From positions 1,565 through 65,564 of the forward strand of contig JAHFOO010000005.1 in the NCBI GenBank assembly GCA_023261645.1: 64,000 nt of DNA. Direction: 5' to 3'. Below are positions 2,769-27,007 of the stretch, piece after piece. Under the pieces are notes generated by a model that saw only the letters and a program-made list of their open reading frames with translations, ran no database searches and was not told the DNA's origin. A program made the translations under genes and the position numbers. This DNA is from Candidatus Moraniibacteriota bacterium (GTDB taxonomy: Bacteria > Patescibacteriota > Minisyncoccia > Moranbacterales > UBA1568). The stretch's first letter is position 1, and every line of letters starts with the position of its first letter.

Positions 2769-2844
2769 TGGTGGGTGCGGGGGGAATCGAACCCTCGACC
2801 GTTGGCTTAAAAGGCCACTGCTCTACCGACTGAGCTACGCACCC
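2769..2844 (-). tRNA. tRNA-Lys(UUU)
   Basis: The reverse complement reads GGGTGCGTAGCTCAGTCGGTAGAGCAGTGGCCTTTTAAGCCAACGGTCGAGGGTTCGATTCCCCCCGCACCCACCA. The acceptor stem GGGTGCG/CGCACCC is a perfect 7-bp pair. The anticodon loop is CTTTTAA (UUU). The T-loop is TTCGATT and CCA is encoded. Confidence 0.85.
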
Positions 2845-4338: not shown

Positions 4339-4341
4339 TAG

Positions 4342-4415
4342 TGGTCGCACCTGGACTCGAACCAGGGACCTTTCGAATGTGAATCGAACGCTCTAACCAA
4401 CTGAGCTATGCGACC
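4342..4415 (-). tRNA. tRNA-Val(CAC)
   Basis: The reverse complement reads GGTCGCATAGCTCAGTTGGTTAGAGCGTTCGATTCACATTCGAAAGGTCCCTGGTTCGAGTCCAGGTGCGACCA. This is a 74-nt cloverleaf with an anticodon loop TTCACAT (CAC), a T-arm CCTGG-TTCGAGT-CCAGG and an acceptor stem GGTCGCA/TGCGACC. The 3' CCA is not encoded. Confidence 0.85.
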
Positions 4416-16098: not shown

Positions 16099-16911
16099 TT
16101 ACACCTCCTGACTTTTAAAGAAATCATTGACAGCGTAGGTGAGCTCACTGGGAGTGATCTGTGTTTTGAGAAAGACTCTTTCTGCGATCTTGGAATCGAT
16201 GAGAGCTTGCACATCCCTATCATCGAGGGATGCGGAGAAAAGGAATATCGGCGTATTGTTTTCCGATTCTGCCTCTTTGAGTTTCATCACCAGTTCTCGT
16301 CCATCCATTCCCGGCATCATCACATCAGATATGACAAGATCGAACGTACCGTCCAGAGCTGCATGAAGTCCGGACACTCCATCATGACAAGCTGTTACCT
16401 CGTATCCTTCATCTCTCAGTCGTTTGCCGAACATATCGATGAATATCGCTTCGTCTTCGATGAACAGGATTCGTTTGCCATTTTTTATCTGATCTTCCGG
16501 CGCTTTTTCCTGACGAAGAGAGTTCTTTCCTTGTTCACTGAACTGATTGATGAAACGGTTCACTTCTCCCACAACTTCCGAAGGAGAAAATTCTGTTTTG
16601 GAAATGAAACCATTGGCACCAAGCTTCAGGCATTCTTCACGGTCTTCTTCGGAACTCAGATTGCTGAACACGACGATTTTTATCTCTGGATCATAAGCCG
16701 AGTTGGTACGCAGTTCACGGAGCACTTCCGTACCGCTCAGCTCCGGAATAACCAAATCGAGTAAGATCAAATCAAATTTCTGTTCAAGAGCTTCTTTCAG
16801 TACTGCTCTCCCCGTAGTCACGTTCAATACATCAAAGCCGGAGCTTTCAAACTTCTTTTTATAAATTTCCGCAATAAACGGATCATCTTCAACAAAAAGC
16901 ACTTTCGGCAT
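16099..16911 (-). CDS. response regulator with two tandem receiver (REC) domains and no output domain
   Basis: The first REC carries VLFVEDDPFIAE...DLILLDLVIPELSG. The second REC carries ILFIEDEAIFID...DLVISDVMMPGMDG. No DNA-binding or enzymatic output is present. Confidence 0.8.
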   Translation of the reverse strand: MPKVLFVEDDPFIAEIYKKKFESSGFDVLNVTTGRAVLKEALEQKFDLILLDLVIPELSGTEVLRELRTNSAYDPEIKIVVFSNLSSEEDREECLKLGANGFISKTEFSPSEVVGEVNRFINQFSEQGKNSLRQEKAPEDQIKNGKRILFIEDEAIFIDMFGKRLRDEGYEVTACHDGVSGLHAALDGTFDLVISDVMMPGMDGRELVMKLKEAESENNTPIFLFSASLDDRDVQALIDSKIAERVFLKTQITPSELTYAVNDFFKSQEV

Positions 16912-17195: not shown

Positions 17196-18026
17196 TTAAT
17201 TCAATGTTTTCTTTTTTTGCGAAATCTTCAAATAATTTTTTCTTGAAACAATCCTACTCCCTGATTCAAGTTCAAGTTTTTTCCTGGCATCACCAGCTAT
17301 TTTTCCACCTTTTCTTGCTGCGACTTTATTCTCTACAAATCCTTTTGCATCCTTGCTTCTCGCTATCTTTGTAGTCGAAGCCTCTCCAAGCATAGAAAAG
17401 ATCAACTCCAAATCATCCATATGATCCCGCAGATTTTCTCGTTTGAGTCCTTTGAATTTCTTATACTGGCTTGGTGTCATTCCAAAAGCAGCCTTGGATA
17501 TCTCAGCAGTCAGAATTGCAAATTCTCTATCTTCCTTCACTCCACGATTTTTCCATTCATCCGTCAATTCCTCTCTGATAGCAATTCCTCTCATCCTCTT
17601 CTCAATCCACCCATCAGAGTACCCCTTCAACTTGTAAAGCGTTCGTGTTCTTTTTGTTGCTAGCTCCGGATCTTCAATTTCTTGAATTCTTTCATAACCT
17701 ACTTTAGCAAGCCACCGCTTGAATGGTTCGGCTTTGGGACTCGGAATAGATTGAATGATACGAAAAATACCTTCGGTATCAGCACAGTCTGTCTCATATT
17801 TCTTCCCGTCAGCTGATTCCAATTTCAGTTGTCGACAAATTGTCGATAACTCAATTCCATCATCATTTTTCACTCTAACTTTCATTCTATACCAATAATC
17901 CCGAGCATCAGCGCTATCAGTCAATATTCTAACTACATCCACAACCGAAAACCACCACTCTTTCTCATGAATGATTCTCCGTACTTCTTTCCCTTTAAAT
18001 ATTGCTATGTGTGGCGTTGTTTCCAT
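17196..18026 (-). CDS. Bro-N / DinD-like (DNA-damage-inducible protein D, antirepressor-like) protein
   Basis: Start at METTPHIAIFKGKEVRRIIHEKEWWFSVVDVVRILT. This is the Bro-N signature F..G..VR....E.WF...DV..IL. The C-terminal region is DinD-like. Confidence 0.6.
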   Translation of the reverse strand: METTPHIAIFKGKEVRRIIHEKEWWFSVVDVVRILTDSADARDYWYRMKVRVKNDDGIELSTICRQLKLESADGKKYETDCADTEGIFRIIQSIPSPKAEPFKRWLAKVGYERIQEIEDPELATKRTRTLYKLKGYSDGWIEKRMRGIAIREELTDEWKNRGVKEDREFAILTAEISKAAFGMTPSQYKKFKGLKRENLRDHMDDLELIFSMLGEASTTKIARSKDAKGFVENKVAARKGGKIAGDARKKLELESGSRIVSRKNYLKISQKKKTLN

Positions 18027-18182
18027 GGTGTATTTGTGTTTATATAACTTACATATAAAATTATACAACAAATAAAAGGAAGTCGTCAACAATTTCCTAT
18101 CCTCCCATTTGGAAGGAAAAGTGTCCACGATGTATCTCGTCTTATTCACTCGTCAACAAGGCTAAGGAAAATTCGATTCTGA

Positions 18183-18345
18183 CTACCTCTTCTCCGAATG
18201 GGAAGGTTCATCAGAAGTGCCGATGTGGATTTTTGTGTTTTTAAGTGGAAGTTCGATGATGAATCTCGAACCTTTGTCAGGACCATCACCCTCCATAGGC
18301 GGGCAGGGATTCTTAGCCCAGATTTTGCTATTATGCACTTCGATG
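18183..18345 (-). pseudogene. displaced 3'-end fragment B of the sensor histidine kinase gene
   Basis: Homologous to 20938-21085. In the kinase frame it reads FIEVHNSKIWAKNPCPPMEGDGPDKGSRFIIELPLKNTKIHIGTSDEPSHSEKR-stop, against the genuine FIEAHNGKIWAESDGPDKGSRFIIELPIINPKIHIGTSDQPTTAERV-stop. The frame and stop are preserved. There is a 19-bp identical core GTGCCGATGTGGATTTTTG. Confidence 0.7.
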
Positions 18346-18361
18346 AATAAAGACAAATTTT

Positions 18362-19096
18362 TTATTTCTTTACGAGAGATTCTGCAGTTCTCACGAGATC
18401 ATCTATGAATACTTCACGATTAGTTGCATTCACTAATTGATACTTGCTCCGAAGTTTACGCAGCGACTTTTCATGTATTGGATAATCCATAGGAACAGCT
18501 CCGAATATTCGACGCCAACACGGAGTCGTCTGAACCACTGAATTGAAAAGTTCGGTCACATGCCAACAGAGAAACTGGTTGGATTGCTTTTTGAGTTCGG
18601 GCCGGGTCCGGAACAGATGATGATAGCAGATAAAATGAAGCATTTCATGAGCAATTACGACAGGAATGAGTTTTTTCCGTCGAAAGCGAACAGGAATCTG
18701 AAAAGTCTTGTCATCCAGATAGCGTGGAAACATGCCCCACACTGTCGGATAGGCGATATATTTCCCCTTCGGCCAAAGAAATGTTTCAAAAATTTCATCC
18801 GTTAGCTGAAAAAAAGTCGAAGCTAATTTCTGCCACACATATTTAGCAATACGCATGTCATACTCGATTGACTGACTGTTTTCTTTATATAAATGTCGAA
18901 TCTGTTGCTGTACAATCAAGGGAATAGATTGTCCTACCTTCCAATCACTAAGAGTAGTACGCAATTGTGGCATAACCGAAAAAACCGCTTCCTCAAGAGC
19001 TGAACCACCATCGAAACGCGCGTCACAAAGAAACCCGCTCACAGCGACAATGTCCTTCCTATAACTCCTCGAAAAACGTACACTCGGATGTTTCAT
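18362..19096 (-). CDS. HExxH-motif protein, putative zinc metallopeptidase (candidate leader peptidase)
   Basis: Contains VIAHEMLHFICYHH (HExxHxxCxxH). No other recognisable family signature is visible by eye. The start may be upstream at 19174, overlapping the radical SAM gene by about 20 nt. Confidence 0.45.
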   Translation of the reverse strand: MKHPSVRFSRSYRKDIVAVSGFLCDARFDGGSALEEAVFSVMPQLRTTLSDWKVGQSIPLIVQQQIRHLYKENSQSIEYDMRIAKYVWQKLASTFFQLTDEIFETFLWPKGKYIAYPTVWGMFPRYLDDKTFQIPVRFRRKKLIPVVIAHEMLHFICYHHLFRTRPELKKQSNQFLCWHVTELFNSVVQTTPCWRRIFGAVPMDYPIHEKSLRKLRSKYQLVNATNREVFIDDLVRTAESLVKK

Positions 19097-19154
19097 AAAA
19101 AAATGTGGCGAAGAGAATTCTCTCTTCGCCACTAGTATACAAGAAACCTCGTAT

Positions 19155-20522
19155 TCAAACAACTGTAGTCGCATATGTCTCCCAAATCAACCATTCGAGT
19201 GATTTACGACTGTGCGGACAAATACGACGATCAATATTCCAACGATTGCCAGTACTCAATTCGACGCTTGCTGGACAACCGCCACCACAGATGGCAATGG
19301 CTGGGCAAGACTGACACCCATCTATATAGAATGGGGAACGTGTTCGCCATTCAGCGTGCAATCCAGAAGCAATCGGGTCACCTTTATCATGCACTGACCC
19401 GTGGAAATAGGTTCGTGGCTTCACAAAGTCCTGACAGACACCAATAGCGCCATCCGGGGCAACAATAATTTGGTTGCCACTTACGCCACAATCGACAAAA
19501 ATCGGATCTTGATCCGCGAAAGACTGAACTTTTCGCATCATCCGTTCTTCATAGATTCCGAGATCACGGAAACGTTCGAAAGCCAGGAGAATGCAATCAG
19601 CTGCCCGATCATAGTACTCGTCATCCACAGGAGCCGCTGGCGAAAAGTGTAGGATGTTGAAATTGATCCCGCTTTCCACTCGAAGGTCATTGATGAAAAA
19701 ATCAAGTACTTCATCAAAATGAGCAACAACATCTGGCGTGAGCGTGGCCGAAAGACCAACTTCGATACCAGCCGCCCGAGCAATCTCATAGGCTCGCCGC
19801 GCACCCACAAACGTATCCACACCTTTCTTCTTCGCGATGCGATAGGTATTCGTGTATAGTGCCGGCCCATCGAGAGATATTCCAAGTGCCACCTTTTCCG
19901 TTGCAAGATACTGAGCGAATTCCTCGTCAAGAAGGAGGCCATTGGTGAGGATAACCAGCTTGGTCTCGGATGACAAATCACCACTCTCCTTCCGTTCCGC
20001 TAGTCGGCGAACCGCCCGACGAATTGCTTTCTTGTTCATCAGTGGCTCACCGCCGTAAAGCTGGATAAGCTTCTCGGGATTGACACTGCCATATTGTCCG
20101 GTCAGCCGAGCGAAGGTATCAATTGCTGCATCTACCGTCGACTCGTCCATCTGACGTGCCCGGAACTTCGGGGCACCAGGCGACTCTTCGAAACAGTATG
20201 TACAACGTAAGTTGCACCCGTCCGTCACTAGAAGGTACATGACATCAAGCGGCTGATTGGCTGCGAGCGCGACACGTTGACTTTCCAGTTCGGAATAATC
20301 ATGATTATCTGGCGCAACAAGAAATCGCTTCTCGATGAGATATGGCAACGCTTCGCCAACCTCTTCGCTCCAGATGTCTAATGAACAAACATCTCGTCCT
20401 CCGTGAAGAATGGCTTCTCCTGATGCGCGAGGAAGGTATACAACCTCCATTGTTAAAGCGTGATACAGTGCAGCCACGTTTTCTCGAAAGAAGCAGTGAC
20501 TCCATGTTGATAAACGATACAT
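19155..20522 (-). CDS. radical SAM / SPASM-domain peptide-modifying enzyme (sactisynthase or ranthipeptide-maturase-like)
   Basis: Start at MYRLSTW, with AAGGAG 8 nt upstream. The CxxxCxxC motif is DGCNLRCTYCFE. A roughly 100-aa N-terminal extension precedes the core and may be a peptide-recognition region. The C-terminal auxiliary-cluster Cys motifs are CGVSGNQ...VC... and CQSCPAIAICGGGCP (SPASM-like). Confidence 0.75.
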   Translation of the reverse strand: MYRLSTWSHCFFRENVAALYHALTMEVVYLPRASGEAILHGGRDVCSLDIWSEEVGEALPYLIEKRFLVAPDNHDYSELESQRVALAANQPLDVMYLLVTDGCNLRCTYCFEESPGAPKFRARQMDESTVDAAIDTFARLTGQYGSVNPEKLIQLYGGEPLMNKKAIRRAVRRLAERKESGDLSSETKLVILTNGLLLDEEFAQYLATEKVALGISLDGPALYTNTYRIAKKKGVDTFVGARRAYEIARAAGIEVGLSATLTPDVVAHFDEVLDFFINDLRVESGINFNILHFSPAAPVDDEYYDRAADCILLAFERFRDLGIYEERMMRKVQSFADQDPIFVDCGVSGNQIIVAPDGAIGVCQDFVKPRTYFHGSVHDKGDPIASGLHAEWRTRSPFYIDGCQSCPAIAICGGGCPASVELSTGNRWNIDRRICPHSRKSLEWLIWETYATTVV

Positions 20523-20602
20523 AGTTGTCTCCTTGATGTGAAAAGAGACGGCTCTGGCTCGTTCGCCCACCGTCTCTTTGTTTTTGACCCATCACTAAGT
20601 GA

Positions 20603-20767
20603 TCAGACGACTTGCACCTGGATGGCTGTGGACGACTTGGCATTCGTGCTCCGGCAACGCATGCAAGAGGTATAGCAGCACTTGGGGCCACCGTAGGTAT
20701 CGCTCGAGAGCTTGCGGGAAACCGCAAGTCGCTGTTGCGACGTGGGCACCATGAACTTCTCATTCAT
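20603..20767 (-). CDS. candidate RiPP precursor peptide (54 aa, Cys-rich core)
   Basis: Translates as MNEKFMVPTSQQRLAVSRKLSSDTYGGPKCCYTSCMRCRSTNAKSSTAIQVQVV. The RBS AAAGG lies 8 nt upstream. A GG motif precedes a core with 4 Cys in 9 residues. The gene sits immediately upstream of the radical SAM gene on the same strand. Confidence 0.6.
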   Translation of the reverse strand: MNEKFMVPTSQQRLAVSRKLSSDTYGGPKCCYTSCMRCRSTNAKSSTAIQVQVV

Positions 20768-20937
20768 AATAAACCTTTCAATTGGTAAAAAACACAGGGA
20801 ATTTCCTGCGACCCCATTCAACTACGTTTTTTTCCTTTTGTCAATAATATATCTTTCTTAAAATAAATCATTGTTCGTAAACAGTGTGCCTCATCTCAAT
20901 AGAAAAATATGTTGGAATAAGAAAAAATATTTCACAA

Positions 20938-22677
20938 TCAAACTCTTTCCGCAGTAGTCGGTTGATCGGACGTGCCGATGTGGATTTTTGGATTGATGAT
21001 CGGAAGTTCGATGATGAAACGGGAGCCTTTGTCCGGGCCATCTGATTCGGCCCAGATTTTGCCATTATGCGCCTCGATGAAACTCTTGCCGACATAGAGA
21101 CCGAGGCCCGCACCAGACACCACCATTCTTGTCGTTTCCTTGCTCCGGAGAAATTTCTGGAAGAGATTCTTCTTGTCTTCTTCGTGGATGCCGATGCCGG
21201 TATCAGAGACGATGATACGTGCCATATCAGTCGTGCTTTCGAGCGACACCGTCACACCACCCTCTTTGGTGTATTTCACCGCATTGTCAATCAAATTGGA
21301 CACCACTTCTTTGATTTTGTTCGGATCGATGGTGATGAGAGGGAGAGGAGTTTTCTGGAGTTTCATCGTCAGTGTCAGATTTTTCTCTTTAGCCGATGGC
21401 TTGAACATATCCACAAGTTCCGCAATAATCGGCTCGAGCTGTGTCGGCGCGAAACTGTGCTGGATGCGTCCTGCCTCGATACGGGAGACATTGAGCAGAT
21501 CCTCGACGAGATGCACGAGACGGCTGTTCACCGAGTAAAGTTTGTTCAAAACATCGAGAACCGGAGCAGAGATGGTGCCGTACGAACCTTCGAGAAGGAG
21601 GGAGATATATCCTTTGATGGCGGTCAGCGGTGTGCGGAGCTGATGCGATGCGATAGAAATAAACTCCGACTTGGTCAGATCCAATTCCTTCAACCGCTGA
21701 TTGGCGATGACCAAAGCATCAGATATTTTCTGAAGCTGTTCCTTCCGTTCAATTTCTTTCTTCACGGATTTTATAAGAAACCATCCGGCACCAGATGTAA
21801 TCACAAGTGTTATTACTGTCAAAATCTGATTTGTCAGATTCTTGGAAAAAAAGAGCATCGAACCAATAAGAACAAACTGTGCCACTACCAACGCCTGTGC
21901 TCCAATGAGCTTTATATCAAAGGCTTTAAATTTCACAATGAGATATCCCAAAAACCCAATAAACACTGGCATCCCGAAAAGACCATACTGCGCCATTGTC
22001 CAATCTTCAGTAAAACTCCCAACAATATTGCCCCAAGAAAATGCAAACAAAAATAAAACCATACCGATTCCGAAAAATTTTATTCTTTTCCTGTCAATAA
22101 CGTCTTGCGAAGTTTTATATGCCTTAACACAAAGAGCTATTATCCATAATGTAAGTAGTGTTTCTACAATGTAACTATAGTAAATAATAACAAGGCCCTC
22201 GTTTGCATCACATATCATTAGATTAATCCCGCTTAGACTGTATTTTGTTGGGATTAACATGACGAACGGGACAATCGACAAGATAGATATTATGTTGGTT
22301 TTAAATGAAATATTTTTGTAACCCACGAAAAAATACATCAGATATAGACTACAAAAGAATATAAATGGCTCTATCAAAATTTGAAGCGACCAAAGAAAAA
22401 GAACTACATCACCCCTATTACTTGCCCAAACCACCAAATCGAATACTGCATATAAGGAAAAAAGAATAACCAGCGATAGCAAAGTTTTCGTAGCTGATGT
22501 TTTCTTATTTAAAAATATGAACACCCCTAGCAACAAAGCTACTAAAACAGCAGGAATATGCGAATAGTAAAGAATGTCTGGAACATTACTAGAAAAAATT
22601 AGATAACTAGGATCTTCCCAAGGACAAGTTAACATAATCGTTGTATATTTATTGCTTGATAAAGAACTACCAAACAA
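20938..22677 (-). CDS. sensor histidine kinase with a multi-pass N-terminal membrane sensor domain
   Basis: 579 aa with roughly 8-9 predicted TM helices. It has HisKA (ISIASHQLRTPLTAIKGY) and HATPase_c (NLIDNAVKYT...DTGIGI...GAGLGL) domains. Confidence 0.85.
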   Translation of the reverse strand: MFGSSLSSNKYTTIMLTCPWEDPSYLIFSSNVPDILYYSHIPAVLVALLLGVFIFLNKKTSATKTLLSLVILFSLYAVFDLVVWASNRGDVVLFLWSLQILIEPFIFFCSLYLMYFFVGYKNISFKTNIISILSIVPFVMLIPTKYSLSGINLMICDANEGLVIIYYSYIVETLLTLWIIALCVKAYKTSQDVIDRKRIKFFGIGMVLFLFAFSWGNIVGSFTEDWTMAQYGLFGMPVFIGFLGYLIVKFKAFDIKLIGAQALVVAQFVLIGSMLFFSKNLTNQILTVITLVITSGAGWFLIKSVKKEIERKEQLQKISDALVIANQRLKELDLTKSEFISIASHQLRTPLTAIKGYISLLLEGSYGTISAPVLDVLNKLYSVNSRLVHLVEDLLNVSRIEAGRIQHSFAPTQLEPIIAELVDMFKPSAKEKNLTLTMKLQKTPLPLITIDPNKIKEVVSNLIDNAVKYTKEGGVTVSLESTTDMARIIVSDTGIGIHEEDKKNLFQKFLRSKETTRMVVSGAGLGLYVGKSFIEAHNGKIWAESDGPDKGSRFIIELPIINPKIHIGTSDQPTTAERV

Positions 22678-22692
22678 TTTTGTTTTTACTTA

Positions 22693-23547
22693 TTATTTTT
22701 TTATGCTATATTTCAAAGTCTTAAATCCGCTACACAAAGTATAAGAAATACTTACAACAAACTCATCACCGTTTTTAACCTTGATGTCGTCGATAGGCAA
22801 AATTATTGGAAAACTATACGCGACAGAATAATCAAAATCTGAACCATCGCAGAAAAACGTTTTTCCCGTTATTCTTATTCCGTTAATAATTCCGTCCTTA
22901 TGGACAACAAGCCTGATTTTCTCACTGATTTTTTTATCCTTATTAAAAACTGAGAAATTAATTTTTGAGTAAGCTATTTTGTCAGAAAAAGCTATTGATT
23001 TTGAGCCAGCTATTCCTGGAATTTCGTATCTTACCATCTTAAATTTATGGCCATACAAATAATCCCTATGACTGACTAAATCAACACAACTCTCGTACTC
23101 TTTAAGTACGACTTTCGCATCTTTTTTAGCATATTTTAAAATATTGTTCATCGCAGGAACCTGTAATTCCTCTATCAATCCAGTAGCAATCATTTCACCA
23201 ATTACAACATCAACCTTTTCTGGTAATTTAATTTTAGTTACATCACCTTCTAAAATTACAATTTTATCTTGATATCCGTTAATTTTAAATATTTCATCAA
23301 GTGTTTTTATATTATTTCTATCAAGCTCAACCGCGTAAACCCTTTCCGCACCGGCTTCCACTGCAAACATCGCGAGAACACCTGACCCTGTTCCCATGTC
23401 AACAACAATGTCACCCTTCTTCACGGTATTTTTTATAGCCGATCTAAAAGCCTTTGTTCTTTTTTGATCGAAAAGACAATAAAAAACCGACTCAGTCATT
23501 GCCCAATAACCCTCTTCATCTATTTTCTTTTCCATAAAAGACTGCAT
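22693..23547 (-). CDS. class I SAM-dependent methyltransferase with protein arginine methyltransferase (PRMT)-like motifs
   Basis: Motif I VVDMGTGSGVLAMFAVEAGA resembles PRMT VLDVGSGTGILxMFAAKAGA. The post-I motif is VYAVELD. A motif II / double-E-like segment is VDVVIGEMIATGLIEEL. Confidence 0.55.
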   Translation of the reverse strand: MQSFMEKKIDEEGYWAMTESVFYCLFDQKRTKAFRSAIKNTVKKGDIVVDMGTGSGVLAMFAVEAGAERVYAVELDRNNIKTLDEIFKINGYQDKIVILEGDVTKIKLPEKVDVVIGEMIATGLIEELQVPAMNNILKYAKKDAKVVLKEYESCVDLVSHRDYLYGHKFKMVRYEIPGIAGSKSIAFSDKIAYSKINFSVFNKDKKISEKIRLVVHKDGIINGIRITGKTFFCDGSDFDYSVAYSFPIILPIDDIKVKNGDEFVVSISYTLCSGFKTLKYSIKK

Positions 23548-23564
23548 TTTTATATATTTTGACG

Positions 23565-24584
23565 CTATTTTTCAAAAATCTTACTCAATCGTCGCAGCTC
23601 TCTCTCTTTCCACAAACCAGTGTGATAGGCATGACTCATCATAAGAGGCAATACTGACGTTGCTTCAGCATATACCATCTGTTCATTGGCAAGATTGATT
23701 TTCCCCCATGACGCTGCTTCTTTGAATGTCGAACTTGAGCACGCGCCATCGCGAACATCGGCAACAGTGATCTGAACTCCATATTTATGCATCGGAACAT
23801 CTTTTCCAAGACCATTTGCACACGTAACAGAATCTTGAATAAAATTCTTCGGCGTACCACCTCCTATTACAAAGATGCCTGTTTCCTTTGCTAACATTTT
23901 TATCTTCGTCAGCTCTCTGAAATCCTTTACAGAATCAATTGAAACGTGACTCTCCGGATGTGCTACCTGATGCCAAACCAAGCCATAGCCTGCACTCGAA
24001 TCAGAAAATGCCGGGCAAAAAATAGGAATATCATTTTCATAAGCGACTTGTATAAGAGAATCTTTTTTCTTTGAATGTTCTACAAGATATTTCCCCATTT
24101 CTCGTATAAACTCGCGTGAGGAATAAACTCCCGGGGCCATCTGATCTGCAACGAGTTGTACTGTTTTGTCACATGCGGTGACTTCCTCTTCATCAATCAA
24201 AGTATCATACACTCTATCGATCAGAAGGCTGCGAAGTTCTTGATTGTCAGCTTCAGGACTTCCTTGATAATGTTTAAACCCGAGAGCCTCAAAAAAATCC
24301 ATATCAACAATAGTCGCGCCTGTTGCAACCACAACATCAACCATCTTATTCTTTACCATATCCACATATACCTGCATACACCCAGCAGCACTTGTGCTTC
24401 CTGCAACGGCCAAGACAACGGTACAATCCTTGTCTCCCAACATTTTATTGAAAATATTTGTCGCTCTGGCGGTGTCGCGTGCGGTAAAGGACATTCCATT
24501 CATCGCATCAATAATCGGACGAGTATCAATAGCTTTTATATCAAAATGTTCTACTTCTTTCTTCAAATAGTCCTTTTTCTGCAT
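23565..24584 (-). CDS. deoxyhypusine synthase-like protein (DHS / homospermidine synthase family)
   Basis: The N-terminal MNGMSFTARDTARATNIFNKM resembles the DHS QGFQA.NLG motif. There is a GGGTPKNF motif (GGG.PKH in DHS). Length is 339 aa. Confidence 0.6.
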   Translation of the reverse strand: MQKKDYLKKEVEHFDIKAIDTRPIIDAMNGMSFTARDTARATNIFNKMLGDKDCTVVLAVAGSTSAAGCMQVYVDMVKNKMVDVVVATGATIVDMDFFEALGFKHYQGSPEADNQELRSLLIDRVYDTLIDEEEVTACDKTVQLVADQMAPGVYSSREFIREMGKYLVEHSKKKDSLIQVAYENDIPIFCPAFSDSSAGYGLVWHQVAHPESHVSIDSVKDFRELTKIKMLAKETGIFVIGGGTPKNFIQDSVTCANGLGKDVPMHKYGVQITVADVRDGACSSSTFKEAASWGKINLANEQMVYAEATSVLPLMMSHAYHTGLWKERELRRLSKIFEK

Positions 24585-24613
24585 AGACGTATGATTTAAA
24601 AAAATTATCTCGT

Positions 24614-25009
24614 TTAATTTTTTGTAAGAGTTTCAAGCGATAAATATTTCAATCCTCTTTTCACAAAGTTCTTCTCAATTTCCGTAATACCGAAGGCTTC
24701 TTTGAAATAATTGATGATGAATTCTGTGTCGAGACCATTGATACAGGTATAGGCATCAATACTGACAAAGCCTTTGGCAGGAAAGGTATGGATGCTGATA
24801 TGACTCTCGGCTATCACCACGAAACCGCTCCACCCACCAGGGTCCTTTTTTCCATTTCCTGGGGCAAAATAAATCTCTGGTTTAGACAATTTTTTCATTC
24901 CCAATTTCTCTGGAAGCTCATCAAGACAACGCAAAACAAGCTTCTCATCATTGAGCTTATCATAATCTCCCCCATACCCATCAATCATCAGATGTTCTCC
25001 AAAGTGCAT
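24614..25009 (-). CDS. speH: S-adenosylmethionine decarboxylase proenzyme (pyruvoyl-dependent, class 1b SpeH type)
   Basis: 131 aa with the self-cleavage motif VVIAESHISIHTFPAKG (ES/S). Confidence 0.75.
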   Translation of the reverse strand: MHFGEHLMIDGYGGDYDKLNDEKLVLRCLDELPEKLGMKKLSKPEIYFAPGNGKKDPGGWSGFVVIAESHISIHTFPAKGFVSIDAYTCINGLDTEFIINYFKEAFGITEIEKNFVKRGLKYLSLETLTKN

Positions 25010-25115
25010 AATAAAAAAATAAGACGAGTCAAATCCATCTACATTCTACCCCAAATCCCCATTTTTTGCAAAAAAAAGAGGGGTCTTCGAAACGTGTTCG
25101 AAAACCCCCTTTTGC

Positions 25116-25682
25116 TTATGCTAACCACTTCACGAAATCGTACCCGGATCGGTATATGAACATCCAAACAATCGTCTGAATGGCAGTCAGAAACAGCATA
25201 ACCATCACCATCCGAAACGTATTGCCAATCTCCTTTTTGAAGAAGATTATGATTTGTTCCGGTCCAGACCACACTGATGCCTGAATAATTATCCCAAGCA
25301 TCGAAAGCCGACCGGCAATCAGTGATTTCTTGTGAATAGCATCGACGCCTCTGCGCAGATCTTCGCCAAGCGATACATCATGCCCAGTCTTGAAATAAAT
25401 CATCATAAATATTCCAGCGACCAGGATGTTGATAATCCACATTGCTATGAAAGCATATAGAAGAGGAATTCCAAGTGCCTTCAGCGCAACGTTCGCGGAG
25501 AAAATAAAAATCTCGACGCCATAATCAGCGAACCCGTAAATAATCCGCCGAGTAACTGTACTGGCGACCTTCTTGCTTTTCTCTTGTATATTTTCTCCCT
25601 CTTTGAGATTGAAAAAAGCATCCGAAATATCCTTCAGCAGGGCCACGATCTTCGCAGCCAATCTCTTGACTGTTTTGAGCAT
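25116..25682 (-). CDS. hypothetical polytopic membrane protein
   Basis: 188-aa ORF with 3-4 hydrophobic helices and no recognisable motif. Confidence 0.4.
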   Translation of the reverse strand: MLKTVKRLAAKIVALLKDISDAFFNLKEGENIQEKSKKVASTVTRRIIYGFADYGVEIFIFSANVALKALGIPLLYAFIAMWIINILVAGIFMMIYFKTGHDVSLGEDLRRGVDAIHKKSLIAGRLSMLGIIIQASVWSGPEQIIIFFKKEIGNTFRMVMVMLFLTAIQTIVWMFIYRSGYDFVKWLA

Positions 25683-25823: not shown

Positions 25824-26813
25824 TCAAGGCAGTTTTGAGACGACTTCCTCTGTGCATTTTTTCACAAGATTCTGAAACTCCGGCTGGGCTGTCAAAATAG
25901 GAATATTTTTTGTTGGAAGTTCTGTTTGGACATACGCAAGAAGCGCGGGAAATGATGCTGATTCCTCTATCAGTGCCAATCTGCTCGTAGCTTCCTCAGG
26001 AACAGTCGTGGAAATCCCCTCTGTCTGGAAAACCGAAGTCTCTGCGGTGGACTTGGCATCCATATACACCTTCCCCTCATATACTGGGAGAGAGACGGCT
26101 TTCGCGCATATCTGACCCTGCACATTCGTCAAAGAAATAATTTGTGCTTCTTCAGGAGAAAATGTGGCTTCATAGTTTCCATCCGCATCAACAGGAATTT
26201 TGTTCGAAACATCGGCAGAAACGAAAATATTTCCGGCTTTACAACTCACTTCATCCAAAAGGACAAGGGATTCTCTTGTTGGAGCAATCTCTTCAGAAGC
26301 ATCTGTTTCACCACCGGTCGTGTCTCCTTCTGTATCTGCACCGCTTCCTTCTTCTATCGGATTTTCCAAAGTATAAGCAACCGGGTCGTTACAGGCTTCA
26401 CCGTCCTTGGCTGTGGCCGGATCGCAGAGGGTATATGCACAATCTGCTTCTCCTTCTCCGCACACGAGAGCCGTACAAGTTTCGTCAGCCGGATCACAGG
26501 CAGGAATATTCTTGGCATTGCGATCGATGAGTTTGTAATAGGAGGTGTCTTGTACAGGATCACCGGTACACGTTGTTTCTGTGGCAGGATCACATACGTA
26601 AACAAAACAACTTTCTGTATACGGATCACAATCAGCCTCCGCCTGGATCATATAATCACGCTGTACCATAAATCGATAGTATGTCACAGCGATCGATGAA
26701 ACAATCAACAGAAAAAATACGAGAAAAAATATTTTTGATTTCTTATCCATAAATATAGTACAAAAATACCATAAAAATGACAAAAAGGAAAGGAAAATTC
26801 CTATGAATGACAT
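25824..26813 (-). CDS. membrane-anchored Cys-rich acidic surface protein with CDPA.ETC repeats
   Basis: Start placed at MSFIGIF, with AAGGAG 9 nt upstream. There are two N-terminal hydrophobic segments. Repeated CDPYTESC, CDPATETTCTGDP, CDPADETCTALVCGEGEADCAYTLCDPATAKDGEACNDP motifs are followed by an acidic Thr/Gly-rich tract. Confidence 0.5.
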   Translation of the reverse strand: MSFIGIFLSFLSFLWYFCTIFMDKKSKIFFLVFFLLIVSSIAVTYYRFMVQRDYMIQAEADCDPYTESCFVYVCDPATETTCTGDPVQDTSYYKLIDRNAKNIPACDPADETCTALVCGEGEADCAYTLCDPATAKDGEACNDPVAYTLENPIEEGSGADTEGDTTGGETDASEEIAPTRESLVLLDEVSCKAGNIFVSADVSNKIPVDADGNYEATFSPEEAQIISLTNVQGQICAKAVSLPVYEGKVYMDAKSTAETSVFQTEGISTTVPEEATSRLALIEESASFPALLAYVQTELPTKNIPILTAQPEFQNLVKKCTEEVVSKLP

Positions 26814-27007
26814 ATAGTTTCGCTCCTTCACTGTGAAGGACTGTCGCACGGTCACAGGAGTCTTCCCGATATCATAATCCAGGGCTGAATCAGAGTGTCG
26901 GCACAAGTATTCATCGTGATACCGTGAGTATTGAAATCATCACAATAAACTTTCGCTTCACTTGTTTCCTTGTCTGCCCCACCAATACCCTCTTAATTCA
27001 ACCATTT

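What the first reader, a model, noticed from the sequence alone, without database searches (positions are those of the whole stretch)
22693..25009. Operon-like trio: SAM decarboxylase, deoxyhypusine-synthase-like enzyme and PRMT-like methyltransferase
Three same-strand genes are separated by only 30 and 18 bp. The first is a pyruvoyl AdoMetDC (ESHISIHTFP self-cleavage motif). The second is a deoxyhypusine synthase / homospermidine synthase family protein (MSFTARD..., GGGTPK). The third is a methyltransferase whose motifs follow protein arginine methyltransferases (VVDMGTGSGVLAMFAVEAGA, VDVVIGEMIATGL) rather than spermidine synthases, which would have GGGDGG. DHS and PRMT are characteristically eukaryotic or archaeal protein-modification enzymes. 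Together with a dcSAM source they suggest either an unusual polyamine pathway (homospermidine, or a methyltransferase-fold aminopropyltransferase) or a hypusine-like or arginine-methyl translation-factor modification system in a bacterium.
Basis: partly seen in the sequence, partly recalled or inferred. Interest (0 to 1): 0.7.

Follow-up and report, generated by a model that had tools for sequence, protein, structure and literature searches.

The report
Agmatine-polyamine operon with PRMT-like methyltransferase
A candidate-phyla-radiation bacterium carries, in what looks like one operon, genes that probably turn arginine into the guanidino-polyamine "diagmatine", an uncharacterised bacterial cousin of protein arginine methyltransferases and a membrane sensor kinase; the combination recurs across phyla and points to methylated agmatine-type compounds that have not been described.

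Summary
The three genes are real, on the minus strand, 29 and 17 nt apart. They appear to be the first three genes of a four-gene unit that ends with a membrane histidine kinase.

- **Gene 2** is not a protein-modifying deoxyhypusine synthase. It is SpeY, the agmatine-coupling enzyme, and it passes NCBI's SpeY equivalog cut-off.
- **Gene 1** belongs to the AdoMetDC family, but it is probably an arginine decarboxylase rather than a dcSAM source. SpeY needs agmatine, its clade has lost the ribose-binding Glu, no spermidine synthase was seen nearby, and an unrelated pyruvoyl arginine decarboxylase takes its place in related loci.
- **Gene 3** has a PRMT fold, with an invariant double-E loop and the SAM-carboxylate Arg, but no THW loop. 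It is not an aminopropyltransferase.

In 22 loci (CPR, Beta- and Gammaproteobacteria), gene 3's family sits next to SpeD-type decarboxylases. In 19 of them it also sits beside exactly one of SpeY, a PurD-like ATP-grasp ligase or an MprF-C-like aminoacyl transferase. Natural fusions join it to PvlArgDC, SET, MprF-C-like and NNMT-like domains.

My best reading is arginine → agmatine → diagmatine, with guanidino N-methylation. This is a new variant of the known SpeDA–SpeY pathway. The chemistry is inferred, not shown.

The parts
25043..25071 (-). Promoter-like site (TTGCAA-17-TAGAAT) about 35 nt upstream of the SpeD-type gene
   Evidence: Consensus scan. A consensus match only, not evidence of function.
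25079..25109 (-). Terminator-like hairpin (13-bp stem followed by a T-run) that ends the upstream 188-aa membrane-protein gene. It marks the 5' boundary of the unit.
24614..25009 (-). SpeD-type pyruvoyl decarboxylase (AdoMetDC class 1b fold), called SpeD* here. Predicted to be an arginine decarboxylase (SpeDA-like) that makes agmatine.
   Evidence: PF02675 at 2e-25; TIGR03330 at 80.7 bits against a cut-off of 75.65. Glu68-Ser69, His74 and Cys89 are present. Ala78 sits where T. maritima Glu72 / human Glu247 binds the ribose. Context evidence.
23565..24584 (-). SpeY / CdmS: an NAD-dependent agmatine homocoupling enzyme (N1,N9-bis(guanidino)homospermidine, 'diagmatine', synthase). It is a DHS homolog.
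   Evidence: NF002699 at 543.5 bits, above the 500 cut-off, while the DHS equivalogs fall below their cut-offs. Lys295 (= human K329), Glu289, Tyr200 and Cys282 are present. [quoted passage not shown]
22693..23547 (-). PRMT-fold SAM-dependent methyltransferase of an uncharacterised family. Predicted to be a guanidino N-methyltransferase acting on agmatine-type small molecules.
   Evidence: The top PDB sequence hits are PRMT6, PRMT7, CARM1, PRMT3 and PRMT1, from 7e-19. The AF2 model has pLDDT 90.7, and the top 50 Foldseek hits are all PRMT cores at TM 0.71-0.80. Arg30, Asp46, Glu74, Glu118 and Glu126/127 are invariant, and there is no THW loop. Neighbourhoods and fusions. Its GC is 0.332 against 0.444 for the window.
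20938..22677 (-). Membrane sensor histidine kinase with a multi-pass N-terminal region plus HisKA and HATPase_c domains. It is the fourth gene of the unit and lies directly downstream of the methyltransferase in all 16 CPR loci.
   Evidence: Pfam hits HisKA and HATPase_c; the HisKA_7TM match is weak. The gap after the MT gene is 15 nt. Adjacency across loci.
20793..20810 (-). Terminator-like hairpin downstream of the kinase gene, marking the 3' boundary of the unit.
   Evidence: A consensus match only.
16099..16911 (-). Response regulator with two receiver domains, the likely partner of the kinase. Here it is separated from the kinase by about 4 kb that holds a radical-SAM gene, a gene of unknown function and a Bro-N gene.
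   Evidence: Pfam Response_reg matched in two stretches. Homologs lie downstream of the kinase in L008, L012, L013, L014 and L025.

Best explanation
This looks like a four-gene operon for an agmatine-derived guanidino-polyamine, in a Moranbacteria-like CPR bacterium.

1. The SpeD-type proenzyme cleaves itself at Glu68-Ser69 to form a pyruvoyl cofactor. It then decarboxylates L-arginine to agmatine, rather than S-adenosylmethionine. This substrate is inferred.
2. SpeY uses NAD+ and catalytic Lys295 to couple two agmatines into N1,N9-bis(guanidino)homospermidine (G44G, caldomycin, 'diagmatine'). The family assignment is shown, and the chemistry is taken from characterised homologs.
3. The PRMT-fold enzyme uses SAM. 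Its PRMT-type double-E loop (Glu118, Glu127) would hold a guanidinium while a guanidino nitrogen is methylated. The substrate could be agmatine, G44G, or arginine before decarboxylation; the order is unresolved. This step is inferred.
4. No ureohydrolase or iminohydrolase is in the cluster. The end product may therefore be a (methyl)guanidino-polyamine rather than homospermidine. This is inferred.
5. The co-transcribed membrane kinase probably ties the pathway to a two-component signal. Its role is unknown.

The methyltransferase is an accessory, horizontally moving part of a wider modular system. That system combines an arginine decarboxylase, one 'coupling' enzyme (SpeY, a PurD-like ATP-grasp ligase or an MprF-C-like aminoacyl transferase), an N-methyltransferase (PRMT-like or SET), an EamA transporter and the kinase.
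For: **SpeY identity**
- It passes the NF002699 equivalog cut-off (543.5 bits against 500), and the DHS models are all below their cut-offs.
- Lys295 and Glu289 are conserved, and Tyr200/Cys282 sit at the two positions that distinguish CdmS from human DHS.
- It is 70% identical to homologs in PvlArgDC-Arginase-DS clusters.
- All tested SpeY enzymes make G44G and require agmatine (PMC13625781; PMC10981699).

**Gene 1 as an arginine decarboxylase**
- SpeD homologs next to speY have repeatedly proved to be arginine decarboxylases (PMC10407285).
- In the 120 closest homologs, the residue aligned with the ribose-binding Glu (human E247 / T. maritima E72; PMC1282579) is Ala in 85, Lys in 13, Gly in 9 and Glu in only 4.
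- The clade has a 7-residue insertion just before the cleavage site.
- No Spermine_synth gene appears in any Pfam-annotated related locus.
- In L010, a non-homologous PvlArgDC (PF01862, 1.3e-26) sits upstream of the MT-MT-kinase genes, the position SpeD* holds in other loci.

**PRMT-like methyltransferase**
- PDB sequence and fold hits are all PRMTs.
- The double-E loop, the SAM-carboxylate Arg30, motif I and the ribose-binding Glu74 are invariant.

**Link to Arg/agmatine metabolism**
- Of 22 distinct family loci, 10 carry SpeD* and 1 carries PvlArgDC.
- 19 carry exactly one of DS (7), ATP-grasp (7) or LPG_synthase_C (5), and never two.
- 12 carry an EamA transporter.
- SpeD*-MT adjacency also occurs in Nitrotoga (L019) and on a 1-Mb contig (L005).
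- Natural fusions exist: PvlArgDC+MT (P0463, in an operon with LPG_synthase_C and a GNAT), SET+MT, MT+LPG_synthase_C-like, and MT+NNMT/PNMT-type small-molecule amine methyltransferase.
- As a precedent, N-methylagmatine units in saskemycin are attributed to an SznE-like arginine methyltransferase (PMC12637814).

**Operon structure**
- Gaps are 29, 17 and 15 nt, with a promoter-like site and flanking terminator-like hairpins.
Against: - No enzyme here was assayed, and no methylated agmatine or G44G from such a cluster was found in the literature searched.
- Gene 1 passes NCBI's AdoMetDC equivalog cut-off, narrowly (80.7 against 75.65). It keeps the Pro residues, and loss of one of them was the only published SpeD-versus-SpeDA discriminator. 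I could not obtain characterised SpeDA sequences to place it in a tree.
- The methyltransferase's tightest partner in CPR is the kinase (16 of 16 loci), not SpeD or SpeY.
- Two MT loci (L008, L027) show neither a decarboxylase nor a coupling enzyme in the sequence held.
- A close relative (L109, whose SpeY is 88% identical) has SpeD*-EamA-SpeY-kinase with no methyltransferase, so the methyltransferase is dispensable for the core pathway.
- All characterised enzymes with this fold and loop methylate protein arginine.
- A ureohydrolase could lie elsewhere in the genome. Only 64 kb was available, and only about 30 ORFs were scanned.
Confidence: 0.55

Rival explanations
1. The operon is an ordinary SpeDA-SpeY homospermidine pathway, with a diagmatine ureohydrolase or iminohydrolase encoded elsewhere. 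The PRMT-like gene is a passenger. It would be a genuine protein arginine methyltransferase whose real partner is the adjacent histidine kinase or another protein.
For: The MT-kinase pair is the invariant core in 16 of 16 CPR loci, often with gaps of 0-15 nt or overlapping. The MT is missing from the syntenic locus L109 and has aberrant GC (0.332), suggesting insertion. Every solved structure it resembles is a protein arginine methyltransferase. L095 shows a canonical PRMT, with a THW loop and a PRMT_C domain, next to a DHS-like gene.
Against: Fusions to PvlArgDC, to an MprF-C-like aminoacyl transferase and to NNMT/PNMT-type small-molecule methyltransferases point to metabolite substrates. In Proteobacteria the family occurs without the kinase but with SpeD*, DS-like, SET and EamA genes. 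The THW loop is absent, and the model shows no helical dimerisation arm of the kind used by protein PRMTs. No arginase-like ORF was detected in any MT-family locus.
Confidence: 0.22
2. The methyltransferase acts on arginine- or agmatine-derived groups that are not polyamines, for example arginyl or agmatinyl head groups on lipids or envelope polymers made by the MprF-C-like or ATP-grasp partners. In this window it only shares regulation with SpeY.
For: LPG_synthase_C (the MprF C-terminal domain family) and EamA membrane proteins are frequent partners, and one MT+LPG_synthase_C-like fusion exists. A membrane kinase is always adjacent in CPR.
Against: In the window, L017, L025 and L029 the only candidate coupling enzyme nearby is SpeY, with operon-like spacing. 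DS, ATP-grasp and LPG_synthase_C never co-occur. That pattern fits interchangeable steps acting on one shared intermediate better than unrelated pathways do.
Confidence: 0.12
3. Gene 1 is a true AdoMetDC that supplies dcSAM, and the PRMT-fold protein is a non-canonical aminopropyltransferase replacing SpeE.
For: Gene 1 passes the TIGR03330 cut-off and keeps all processing residues. SpeD* and the MT occur together without SpeE. Aminopropyltransferases also have the class-I methyltransferase fold (established knowledge).
Against: Arg30, the counterpart of the PRMT1 Arg54 that binds the SAM carboxylate (my own knowledge of PRMT1 structures, aligned), is invariant. There is no GGGDGG-type acidic gatekeeper and no PF01564 hit. 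The SpeD* clade has lost the ribose-binding Glu. PvlArgDC replaces SpeD* or is fused to the MT, which makes no sense for a dcSAM pathway. SpeY needs agmatine.
Confidence: 0.06
4. The genes form a hypusine-like or arginine-methyl modification system for a translation factor such as EF-P.
For: DHS and PRMT homologs are protein modifiers in eukaryotes. A DHS-like gene and a canonical PRMT lie 5 nt apart in L095.
Against: The window protein is a SpeY equivalog, with the acidic spermidine-binding residues of DHS replaced. No translation-factor gene is in the unit. Partners are transporters, ligases and decarboxylases.
Confidence: 0.03

Closest known systems
speDA-speY-speB (or aguA/aguB) homospermidine gene clusters (Li et al., JBC 2023, PMC10407285; JBC 2026, PMC13625781)
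   Same: A SpeD-fold pyruvoyl decarboxylase sits directly upstream of a SpeY-type DHS homolog on the same strand. SpeY passes the curated equivalog. The logic is the same: arginine to agmatine to G44G.
   Different: No ureohydrolase (DUH) or iminohydrolase (DIH) is in the cluster. The downstream slot holds a PRMT-fold methyltransferase followed by a histidine kinase. The 2026 paper does not mention a methyltransferase (0 occurrences), and it expects speY to travel with duh or dih.
Thermus thermophilus caldomycin synthase CdmS (Kobayashi et al. 2024, PMC10981699)
   Same: Same NCBIfam equivalog. The catalytic Lys and the guanidyl-binding Glu are kept, and the residues at the human DHS Asp243/Asp316 positions are non-acidic.
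   Different: In Thermus, agmatine comes from a PLP-dependent arginine decarboxylase and G44G is hydrolysed to homospermidine by SpeB. Here the decarboxylase is SpeD-type and no hydrolase is linked.
Eukaryotic type I-III protein arginine methyltransferases (PRMT1, PRMT3, PRMT6, CARM1, PRMT7)
   Same: Two-domain fold (Rossmann plus beta-barrel) at TM 0.71-0.80. It shares the N-terminal D-x-x-R-T helix, motif I, the ribose-binding Glu and the double-E loop.
   Different: It is only about 280 aa. It has no THW loop, carrying AYS[YF]P instead, and no helical dimerisation arm in the model. It is bacterial, lies in metabolic gene clusters, and is fused in nature to arginine decarboxylase and small-molecule methyltransferase domains.
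SznE-type free-arginine N-methyltransferases of natural-product pathways (streptozotocin; proposed for the N-methylagmatine units of saskemycin, PMC12637814)
   Same: The same proposed chemistry: methylation of a guanidino nitrogen on a free metabolite, giving N-methylarginine or N-methylagmatine units.
   Different: Homology to SznE was not tested, because no sequence was available. Those enzymes sit in actinomycete antibiotic clusters, not in polyamine operons of CPR bacteria.
Spermidine synthase SpeE and other aminopropyltransferases
   Same: Class-I methyltransferase Rossmann fold, and genomic pairing with a SpeD-family gene.
   Different: There is no PF01564 match and no GGGDGG motif. The SAM-carboxylate-binding Arg is retained, and the C-terminal domain is a PRMT-type beta-barrel.

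Membership tests
[quoted passage not shown] | Scores above the curated equivalog cut-off of NCBIfam NF002699 and below the DHS equivalogs | tested here: met
   543.5 bits against a cut-off of 500. The DHS models score 276/434, 214/364 and 213/304. The 'homospermidine biosynthesis protein' model scores 175/450.
[quoted passage not shown] | Catalytic Lys (human K329 / CdmS K299) and guanidyl-binding Glu (CdmS E293), with non-acidic residues at human Asp243 and Asp316 (CdmS Phe204, Leu286) | tested here: met
   Lys295, Glu289, Tyr200 and Cys282, read from the alignment to human DHS. The criteria come from PMC10981699.
[quoted passage not shown] | Forms G44G from two agmatines | not testable with these tools
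   Needs expression in E. coli ΔspeB with LC-MS, as in PMC13625781.
Deoxyhypusine synthase proper (protein-modifying) | Passes a DHS equivalog, has the acidic spermidine-binding Asp243/Asp316, and has an eIF5A-type substrate | tested here: not met
   All five DHS equivalogs are below cut-off. The two Asp are replaced by Tyr and Cys. No IF5A or EF-P gene is in the unit.
AdoMetDC class 1b fold (SpeD family) | Pfam/TIGRFAM match and the self-processing residues Ser, His and Cys | tested here: met
   PF02675 at 89.5 bits; TIGR03330 at 80.7 against 75.65. Ser69, His74 and Cys89 align with T. maritima S63, H68 and C83.
Bona fide S-adenosylmethionine decarboxylase (function) | Ribose-binding Glu after the H-x-x-P motif (human E247), and an aminopropyltransferase partner | tested here: not met
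   Ala78 sits at that position, and only 4 of the 120 closest homologs keep Glu. No Spermine_synth gene is in the scanned window ORFs or in any Pfam-annotated related locus. The genome outside these stretches was not seen.
SpeDA (SpeD-derived arginine decarboxylase) | Clustered with speY or agmatine-using genes, lacks AdoMetDC activity and decarboxylates L-arginine | tested here: inconclusive
   The context criterion is met, and PvlArgDC substitutes for it in L010. The published sequence discriminator, loss of a conserved Pro, is not seen: both candidate Pro residues are kept. Activity is not testable here.
SpeDC (SpeD-derived ornithine decarboxylase) | Diagnostic Gln, Thr, Phe and Tyr around the cleavage site (Q..ETS..GHF) | tested here: not met
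   The window protein has AESHISIHTFP. Compare the ODC half of the fusion protein in the supplement.
Protein arginine methyltransferase (PRMT) family | Rossmann plus beta-barrel two-domain fold, with motif I and the SAM-binding residues | tested here: met
   AF2 pLDDT is 90.7. The 50 best Foldseek PDB hits are all PRMT cores. Asp27, Arg30, Asp46, Gly52/54/56 and Glu74 are invariant.
Protein arginine methyltransferase (PRMT) family | Double-E loop (PRMT1 E144/E153) | tested here: met
   Glu118 and Glu127 are invariant in 28 of 28 sequences and align with the PRMT6 SEW...HES glutamates.
Protein arginine methyltransferase (PRMT) family | THW loop | tested here: not met
   No THW in any of the 28 family members; the conserved AYS[YF]P..LP is there instead. 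The canonical PRMT in L095 does have PPTHWQQ.
Protein arginine methyltransferase (PRMT) family | Helical dimerisation arm, and activity on protein arginine | tested here: inconclusive
   The model shows only short strands and coil between residues 160 and 190. PF22528 PRMT_C is not hit by the window protein but is hit by the L095 protein. Activity is not testable here.
Spermidine synthase / aminopropyltransferase | PF01564 match, the GGGDGG dcSAM gatekeeper Asp, and no carboxylate-binding Arg | tested here: not met
   No PF01564 hit at E<=0.01. Motif I is VVDMGTGSG and Arg30 is invariant.

The most novel reading that the evidence does not exclude
CPR bacteria, together with scattered Beta- and Gammaproteobacteria and a high-GC lineage, share a mix-and-match pathway for N-methylated, agmatine-derived polycations such as methyl-diagmatine or aminoacyl- and acyl-methylagmatines. 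The parts are an arginine decarboxylase (SpeD-derived or PvlArgDC); one of three interchangeable coupling enzymes (SpeY, a PurD-like ATP-grasp ligase or an MprF-C-like aminoacyl-tRNA transferase); a PRMT-fold guanidino methyltransferase and/or a SET-domain amine methyltransferase; and an EamA exporter. In CPR there is also a dedicated multi-pass membrane histidine kinase that would sense or regulate the product. On this reading, both hallmark 'protein-modifying' folds (PRMT and SET) serve here as small-molecule methyltransferases, and the products could act as envelope-charge modifiers or as signals between symbiont and host.
Probability: 0.3. Interest if true: 0.8.

Novelty: new variant of a known kind. 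Interest (0 to 1): 0.62.

Why it matters
SpeY's chemistry (agmatine to diagmatine) was worked out only in 2024-2026, and the current picture is that speY travels with a dedicated hydrolase to give homospermidine. Here, and in related loci, the hydrolase slot is taken by a PRMT-fold methyltransferase.

If that enzyme methylates guanidino groups of agmatine or diagmatine, three things follow:
- A new class of bacterial guanidino-polyamines would be defined.
- It would be, as far as my searches show, the first PRMT-fold enzyme assigned to polyamine metabolism.
- A gene set that is very common in the poorly understood, host-dependent CPR bacteria would gain a function.

The prediction can be tested directly with three small soluble proteins and LC-MS. 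Even the conservative part has practical value: many CPR 'adenosylmethionine decarboxylase', 'deoxyhypusine synthase' and 'L11 methyltransferase' annotations are probably wrong.

Tried and rejected
- **Aminopropyltransferase reading of the MT.** Rejected: no PF01564 hit, the carboxylate-binding Arg is invariant, and the family is linked or fused to arginine decarboxylases.
- **True DHS or hypusine system.** Rejected on the NCBIfam cut-offs and the active-site residues.
- **SpeDC/ODC identity for gene 1.** Rejected from the motif.
- **Placing gene 1 among characterised SpeDA enzymes.** This did not work. The supplement holds accession numbers but no sequences. The homolog search returned only close CPR relatives without those accessions. 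The published 'gamma-Pro' discriminator could not be applied with confidence because the figure is not held.
- **Metagenome scan with the MT profile.** It gave mostly distant PRMT-like proteins at 24-45% identity. Only L025-L032 belong to the family.
- **Foldseek against afdb50.** Unavailable.
- **Literature searches.** I searched for a described PRMT-like enzyme in CPR, for agmatine guanidino methyltransferases, and for aminopropyltransferases of the methyltransferase type in CPR. Nothing relevant turned up apart from the saskemycin/SznE precedent.
- **SpeB/SpeE/AguA search in the window.** About 30 ORFs were scanned with Pfam, plus phmmer with two arginase seeds over all loci. Nothing was found, but the scan is incomplete and the rest of the genome is unseen.
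- **PurD identity of the ATP-grasp partner.** Rejected: 120 bits against a cut-off of 288.

Full report
**Observation.** The three ORFs exist as described, all on the minus strand: 24614..25009 (131 aa), 23565..24584 (339 aa) and 22693..23547 (284 aa). Public gene callers start the third ORF four codons later. The gaps are 29 and 17 nt. Pfam assigns gene 1 to AdoMet_dc (2e-25), gene 2 to DS (7e-92) and gene 3 to generic class-I methyltransferase models led by PrmA, TRM5/TYW2 and PRMT5.

Fifteen nucleotides after gene 3, a fourth gene starts on the same strand: a 579-aa membrane histidine kinase at 20938..22677. A terminator-like hairpin (25109-25079) and a promoter-like site (25071-25043) precede gene 1, and the next terminator-like hairpin follows the kinase (20810-20793). 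These are consensus matches only. The unit therefore looks like four genes. The window is part of a 67,473-bp contig of an NCBI MAG, and proteins in the same 90% clusters are labelled Candidatus Moranbacteria.

[quoted passage not shown] It fails all deoxyhypusine synthase equivalogs and the 'homospermidine biosynthesis protein' model. This family was characterised recently:
- The Thermus enzyme CdmS couples two agmatines into a bis-guanidino homospermidine, caldomycin or G44G (PMC10981699).
- SpeY homologs from diverse phyla all do the same, need agmatine, and are normally followed by a G44G-specific ureohydrolase or iminohydrolase (PMC13625781).

In the alignment to human DHS, the window protein keeps the catalytic Lys (Lys295 = K329) and the Glu that CdmS is modelled to use for the guanidyl group (Glu289). 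It has Tyr200 and Cys282 at the two positions (human Asp243, Asp316) where CdmS differs from DHS. It is 68-93% identical to at least 120 proteins from CPR, DPANN archaea, Syntrophales and Bacteroidales. In two Nanoarchaeota loci, the 70%-identical homolog lies in a textbook PvlArgDC-arginase-DS cluster.

**Gene 1 belongs to the AdoMetDC family but is probably not an AdoMet decarboxylase.** It has the processing residues (Glu68-Ser69, His74, Cys89) and just passes the TIGR03330 cut-off (80.7 against 75.65). It is not the ornithine-decarboxylase type. Four observations argue for arginine decarboxylase:
1. SpeY needs agmatine, and SpeD homologs clustered with speY have repeatedly turned out to be arginine decarboxylases with no AdoMetDC activity (PMC10407285).
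2. The Glu that binds the ribose hydroxyls of AdoMet is human E247 in H-I-T-P-E, aligned with T. maritima H-T-W-P-E (PMC1282579). Here it is Ala78. Among the 120 closest homologs it is Ala in 85, Lys in 13, Gly in 9 and Glu in 4. The clade also carries a 7-residue insertion (KDPGGWSG) just before the cleavage site, in the subunit that determines specificity in the Sulfolobus paralogs. That last point is from my own recollection of Giles and Graham 2008 and was not checked here.
3. I saw no spermidine synthase near any member.
4. In locus L010, a non-homologous pyruvoyl arginine decarboxylase (PF01862, 1.3e-26) lies upstream of the MT-MT-kinase genes, where SpeD* lies in other loci.

Against this, the one published SpeD-versus-SpeDA discriminator (loss of a conserved Pro) is not seen. 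I also could not obtain characterised SpeDA sequences for a tree.

**Gene 3 is a PRMT-fold methyltransferase of an uncharacterised family.**
- All 60 listed PDB sequence matches are arginine methyltransferases (PRMT1-9, CARM1, yeast Hmt1, Hsl7), from 7e-19.
- An AlphaFold model built on 28 homologs is confident (pLDDT 90.7). Its 50 best Foldseek matches are all PRMT cores over the full length, at TM 0.71-0.80.
- Invariant in the family alignment are the PRMT N-terminal D-x-x-R-T (Asp27, Arg30), motif I (Asp46, Gly52/54/56), the ribose Glu74, and the double-E loop in GEMIATGLIEELQ (Glu118, Glu126/127). Arg30 aligns with the Arg that binds the SAM carboxylate in PRMT1, which is my own knowledge of the structures.
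- The THW loop is absent, and the model shows no helical dimerisation arm.
- There is no spermidine-synthase signal.

The retained carboxylate-binding Arg argues that the cofactor is SAM, not dcSAM. Public annotations for the family ('50S ribosomal protein L11 methyltransferase', 'predicted RNA methylase') are almost certainly wrong, since the prmA equivalog scores 42.8 against a cut-off of 183.

**Comparative context.** I collected 22 distinct loci that carry a family member with 47-83% identity. They come from Moran-, Pacei-, Parcu-, Sacchari- and Campbellbacteria, Sulfuritalea, Rhodocyclaceae, Nitrotoga, Haliea and unnamed contigs.

| Neighbour | Loci (of 22) |
|---|---|
| Membrane kinase directly downstream of the MT | 16, all the CPR loci |
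| SpeD* decarboxylase | 10 |
| PvlArgDC | 1 |
| EamA-type membrane protein | 12 |
| DS homolog | 7 |
| PurD-like ATP-grasp ligase (120 bits against the purD cut-off of 288) | 7 |
| Stand-alone LPG_synthase_C (MprF C-domain, aminoacyl-tRNA transferase family) | 5 |
| SET-domain protein | 4, all Betaproteobacteria |

The last-but-one three rows (DS, ATP-grasp, LPG_synthase_C) together cover 19 loci, and no locus has two of them. Loci found through SpeD* or SpeY show the same parts list even where the PRMT-like gene is missing:
- L105: SpeD*-EamA-LPG_synthase_C-kinase.
- L106: SpeD* with the ATP-grasp gene.
- L107: SpeD*-SET-kinase.
- L109: SpeD*-EamA-SpeY-kinase. This locus is syntenic with the window, and its SpeY is 88% identical.

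The methyltransferase is therefore an accessory, mobile part. That fits its GC of 0.332 against 0.39-0.41 for its operon neighbours. The trio itself recurs in L029 (SpeD*-DS-MT), L025 (DS-MT-kinase) and L017 (SpeD*-DS-EamA-EamA-MT-kinase). In Proteobacteria, SpeD* and the MT are adjacent without the kinase (L019 in Nitrotoga, and L005).

**Fusions.** A profile search of 1.84 billion representatives finds 248 clusters at E<=1e-30. The best 150 include these natural fusions:
- P0463: PvlArgDC (residues 24-183, 8e-24) joined to the methyltransferase (205-478), with the double-E loop intact. Its gene heads an operon with LPG_synthase_C and a GNAT (L113).
- P0433: SET plus MT.
- P0434: MT plus an LPG_synthase_C-like domain.
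- P0494, P0502 and P0518: MT plus an NNMT/PNMT/TEMT-type small-molecule amine methyltransferase.

A fusion to an arginine decarboxylase is the strongest single argument that this family handles free arginine or agmatine rather than proteins.

**Most likely mechanism.** Arginine is decarboxylated by the SpeD-type enzyme to agmatine. SpeY couples two agmatines to G44G. The PRMT-fold enzyme methylates a guanidino nitrogen of agmatine, of G44G, or of arginine before decarboxylation. No hydrolase is linked, so the product may stay guanidinylated. The kinase couples the unit to a two-component signal, with a two-receiver response regulator 4 kb downstream that recurs in five other loci.

What is shown: gene order, family memberships, conserved residues, and the neighbourhood and fusion patterns. 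What is inferred: the substrate of gene 1, the substrate and product of gene 3, the absence of a hydrolase elsewhere in the genome, and any role of the kinase. N-methylagmatine units in an actinomycete antibiotic, attributed to an SznE-like arginine methyltransferase, are a chemical precedent (PMC12637814).

**Rivals.**
- The main rival is that the methyltransferase is a true protein arginine methyltransferase paired with the kinase, and only a passenger in a standard SpeDA-SpeY pathway. The invariant MT-kinase adjacency and the MT-less locus L109 favour this. The fusions and the kinase-free proteobacterial clusters count against it.
- A second rival places the methyltransferase on lipid- or envelope-bound arginyl or agmatinyl groups.
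- The dcSAM/aminopropyltransferase reading and the hypusine-like reading are unlikely, for the reasons given above.

**Known versus new.** The SpeD-type decarboxylase plus SpeY pair is a known kind of cluster (2023-2026 literature). A PRMT-fold partner in place of the hydrolase, the family itself, its fusions, and the three-way interchange of coupling enzymes were not found in any paper I could search. I rate this a new variant of a known kind. It has a moderately high chance of leading to new chemistry.

**Limits.**
- Only 64 kb of the genome was visible, and only about 30 of its ORFs were scanned against Pfam.
- Loci are phylogenetically related, so the counts are not independent events.
- No biochemical test was possible.

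Noticed in passing
window 17196-20821 (minus strand): About 4 kb lies between the kinase and its likely response regulator. It holds a radical-SAM peptide-maturase-like gene (19155-20570; TIGR04136 FibroRumin maturase at 241 bits, below the 400 cut-off; PapB/SCIFF-type hits), preceded by a 54-aa Cys-rich ORF (20603-20767, ...GGPKCCYTSCMRCRS...) that could be a RiPP precursor. Also present are a 270-aa protein with no family match (18362-19174) and a Bro-N domain protein (17196-18149). It may be an inserted RiPP or mobile island.
   Followed up: partly
window 22693-23547, compared with L109: The methyltransferase gene has a much lower GC (0.332) than its operon neighbours (0.39-0.41) and the window (0.444). 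It is absent from the otherwise syntenic Moraniibacteriota locus L109, which has an EamA gene instead. This suggests recent insertion or exchange.
   Followed up: partly
L095 5-1670: On a metagenome contig, a DHS-like gene fragment is followed 5 nt later by a canonical 366-aa PRMT. The fragment's best model is the DHS equivalog NF002006, not SpeY. The PRMT has a PRMT_C domain, a THW loop (PPTHWQQ) and a double-E loop, and is 31% identical to the window MT. This is an independent DS-PRMT adjacency of a different flavour.
   Followed up: partly
L113 6001-9242; protein P0463: A natural fusion of pyruvoyl arginine decarboxylase (PvlArgDC) with the PRMT-fold methyltransferase, in an apparent operon with an LPG_synthase_C-family gene and a GNAT acetyltransferase, on a high-GC contig. 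L010 (Paceibacterota) has the same four functions as separate genes, plus NUDIX, a second MT paralog and the kinase.
   Followed up: partly
L019 9519-14113 (Nitrotoga MAG); L011, L015, L018 (Rhodocyclaceae, Sulfuritalea): Betaproteobacterial versions of the module. L019 has SpeD*-MT-SET-(206 aa)-divergent DS-like-SET-membrane protein, where the DS-like protein fits no NCBIfam equivalog (about 100 bits against cut-offs of 350-500). The other three loci have LPG_synthase_C-SET-MT-EamA. By eye, a downstream L019 ORF (14700-15587) looks like an MTA phosphorylase; this was not tested.
   Followed up: partly
proteins P0494, P0502, P0518, P0433, P0434, P0400 (one search hits): Other domain fusions of the family: with NNMT/PNMT/TEMT-type small-molecule amine N-methyltransferase domains, with SET, with an LPG_synthase_C-like domain, and a tandem MT-MT. 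About ten more distant members carry an N-terminal extension of roughly 100-150 aa, which by eye looks like a winged-helix domain; this was not tested.
   Followed up: partly
L110 2386-6020 (Syntrophales MAG): Two DS paralogs lie side by side. One is SpeY-type. The other passes the 'homospermidine biosynthesis protein' equivalog NF001980 (454 against 450) and sits next to a PLP-dependent Orn/Arg decarboxylase.
   Followed up: no
window 25116-25682 and 25824-26906 (minus strand): Two proteins with no family match lie directly upstream of the operon: a 188-aa membrane protein and a 360-aa Cys-rich protein with an N-terminal membrane anchor. Homologs of the 360-aa protein recur near the module in several other CPR loci (L012, L013, L014, L021, L109).
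   Followed up: partly
public annotation of relatives: Source names look systematically misleading. The PRMT-fold family is labelled '50S ribosomal protein L11 methyltransferase' or 'predicted RNA methylase'. SpeY homologs are mostly labelled 'deoxyhypusine synthase'. The SpeD* clade is labelled 'adenosylmethionine decarboxylase'.
   Followed up: yes
window 2769-2844 and 4341-4415: tRNA-Lys(UUU) and tRNA-Val(CAC) genes on the minus strand. The ORFs scanned elsewhere in the window are housekeeping (PBP2, MreC, MurJ, LepA, a class II D/K/N-type tRNA synthetase, glycosyltransferases). The rest look housekeeping by eye but were not scanned.
   Followed up: no
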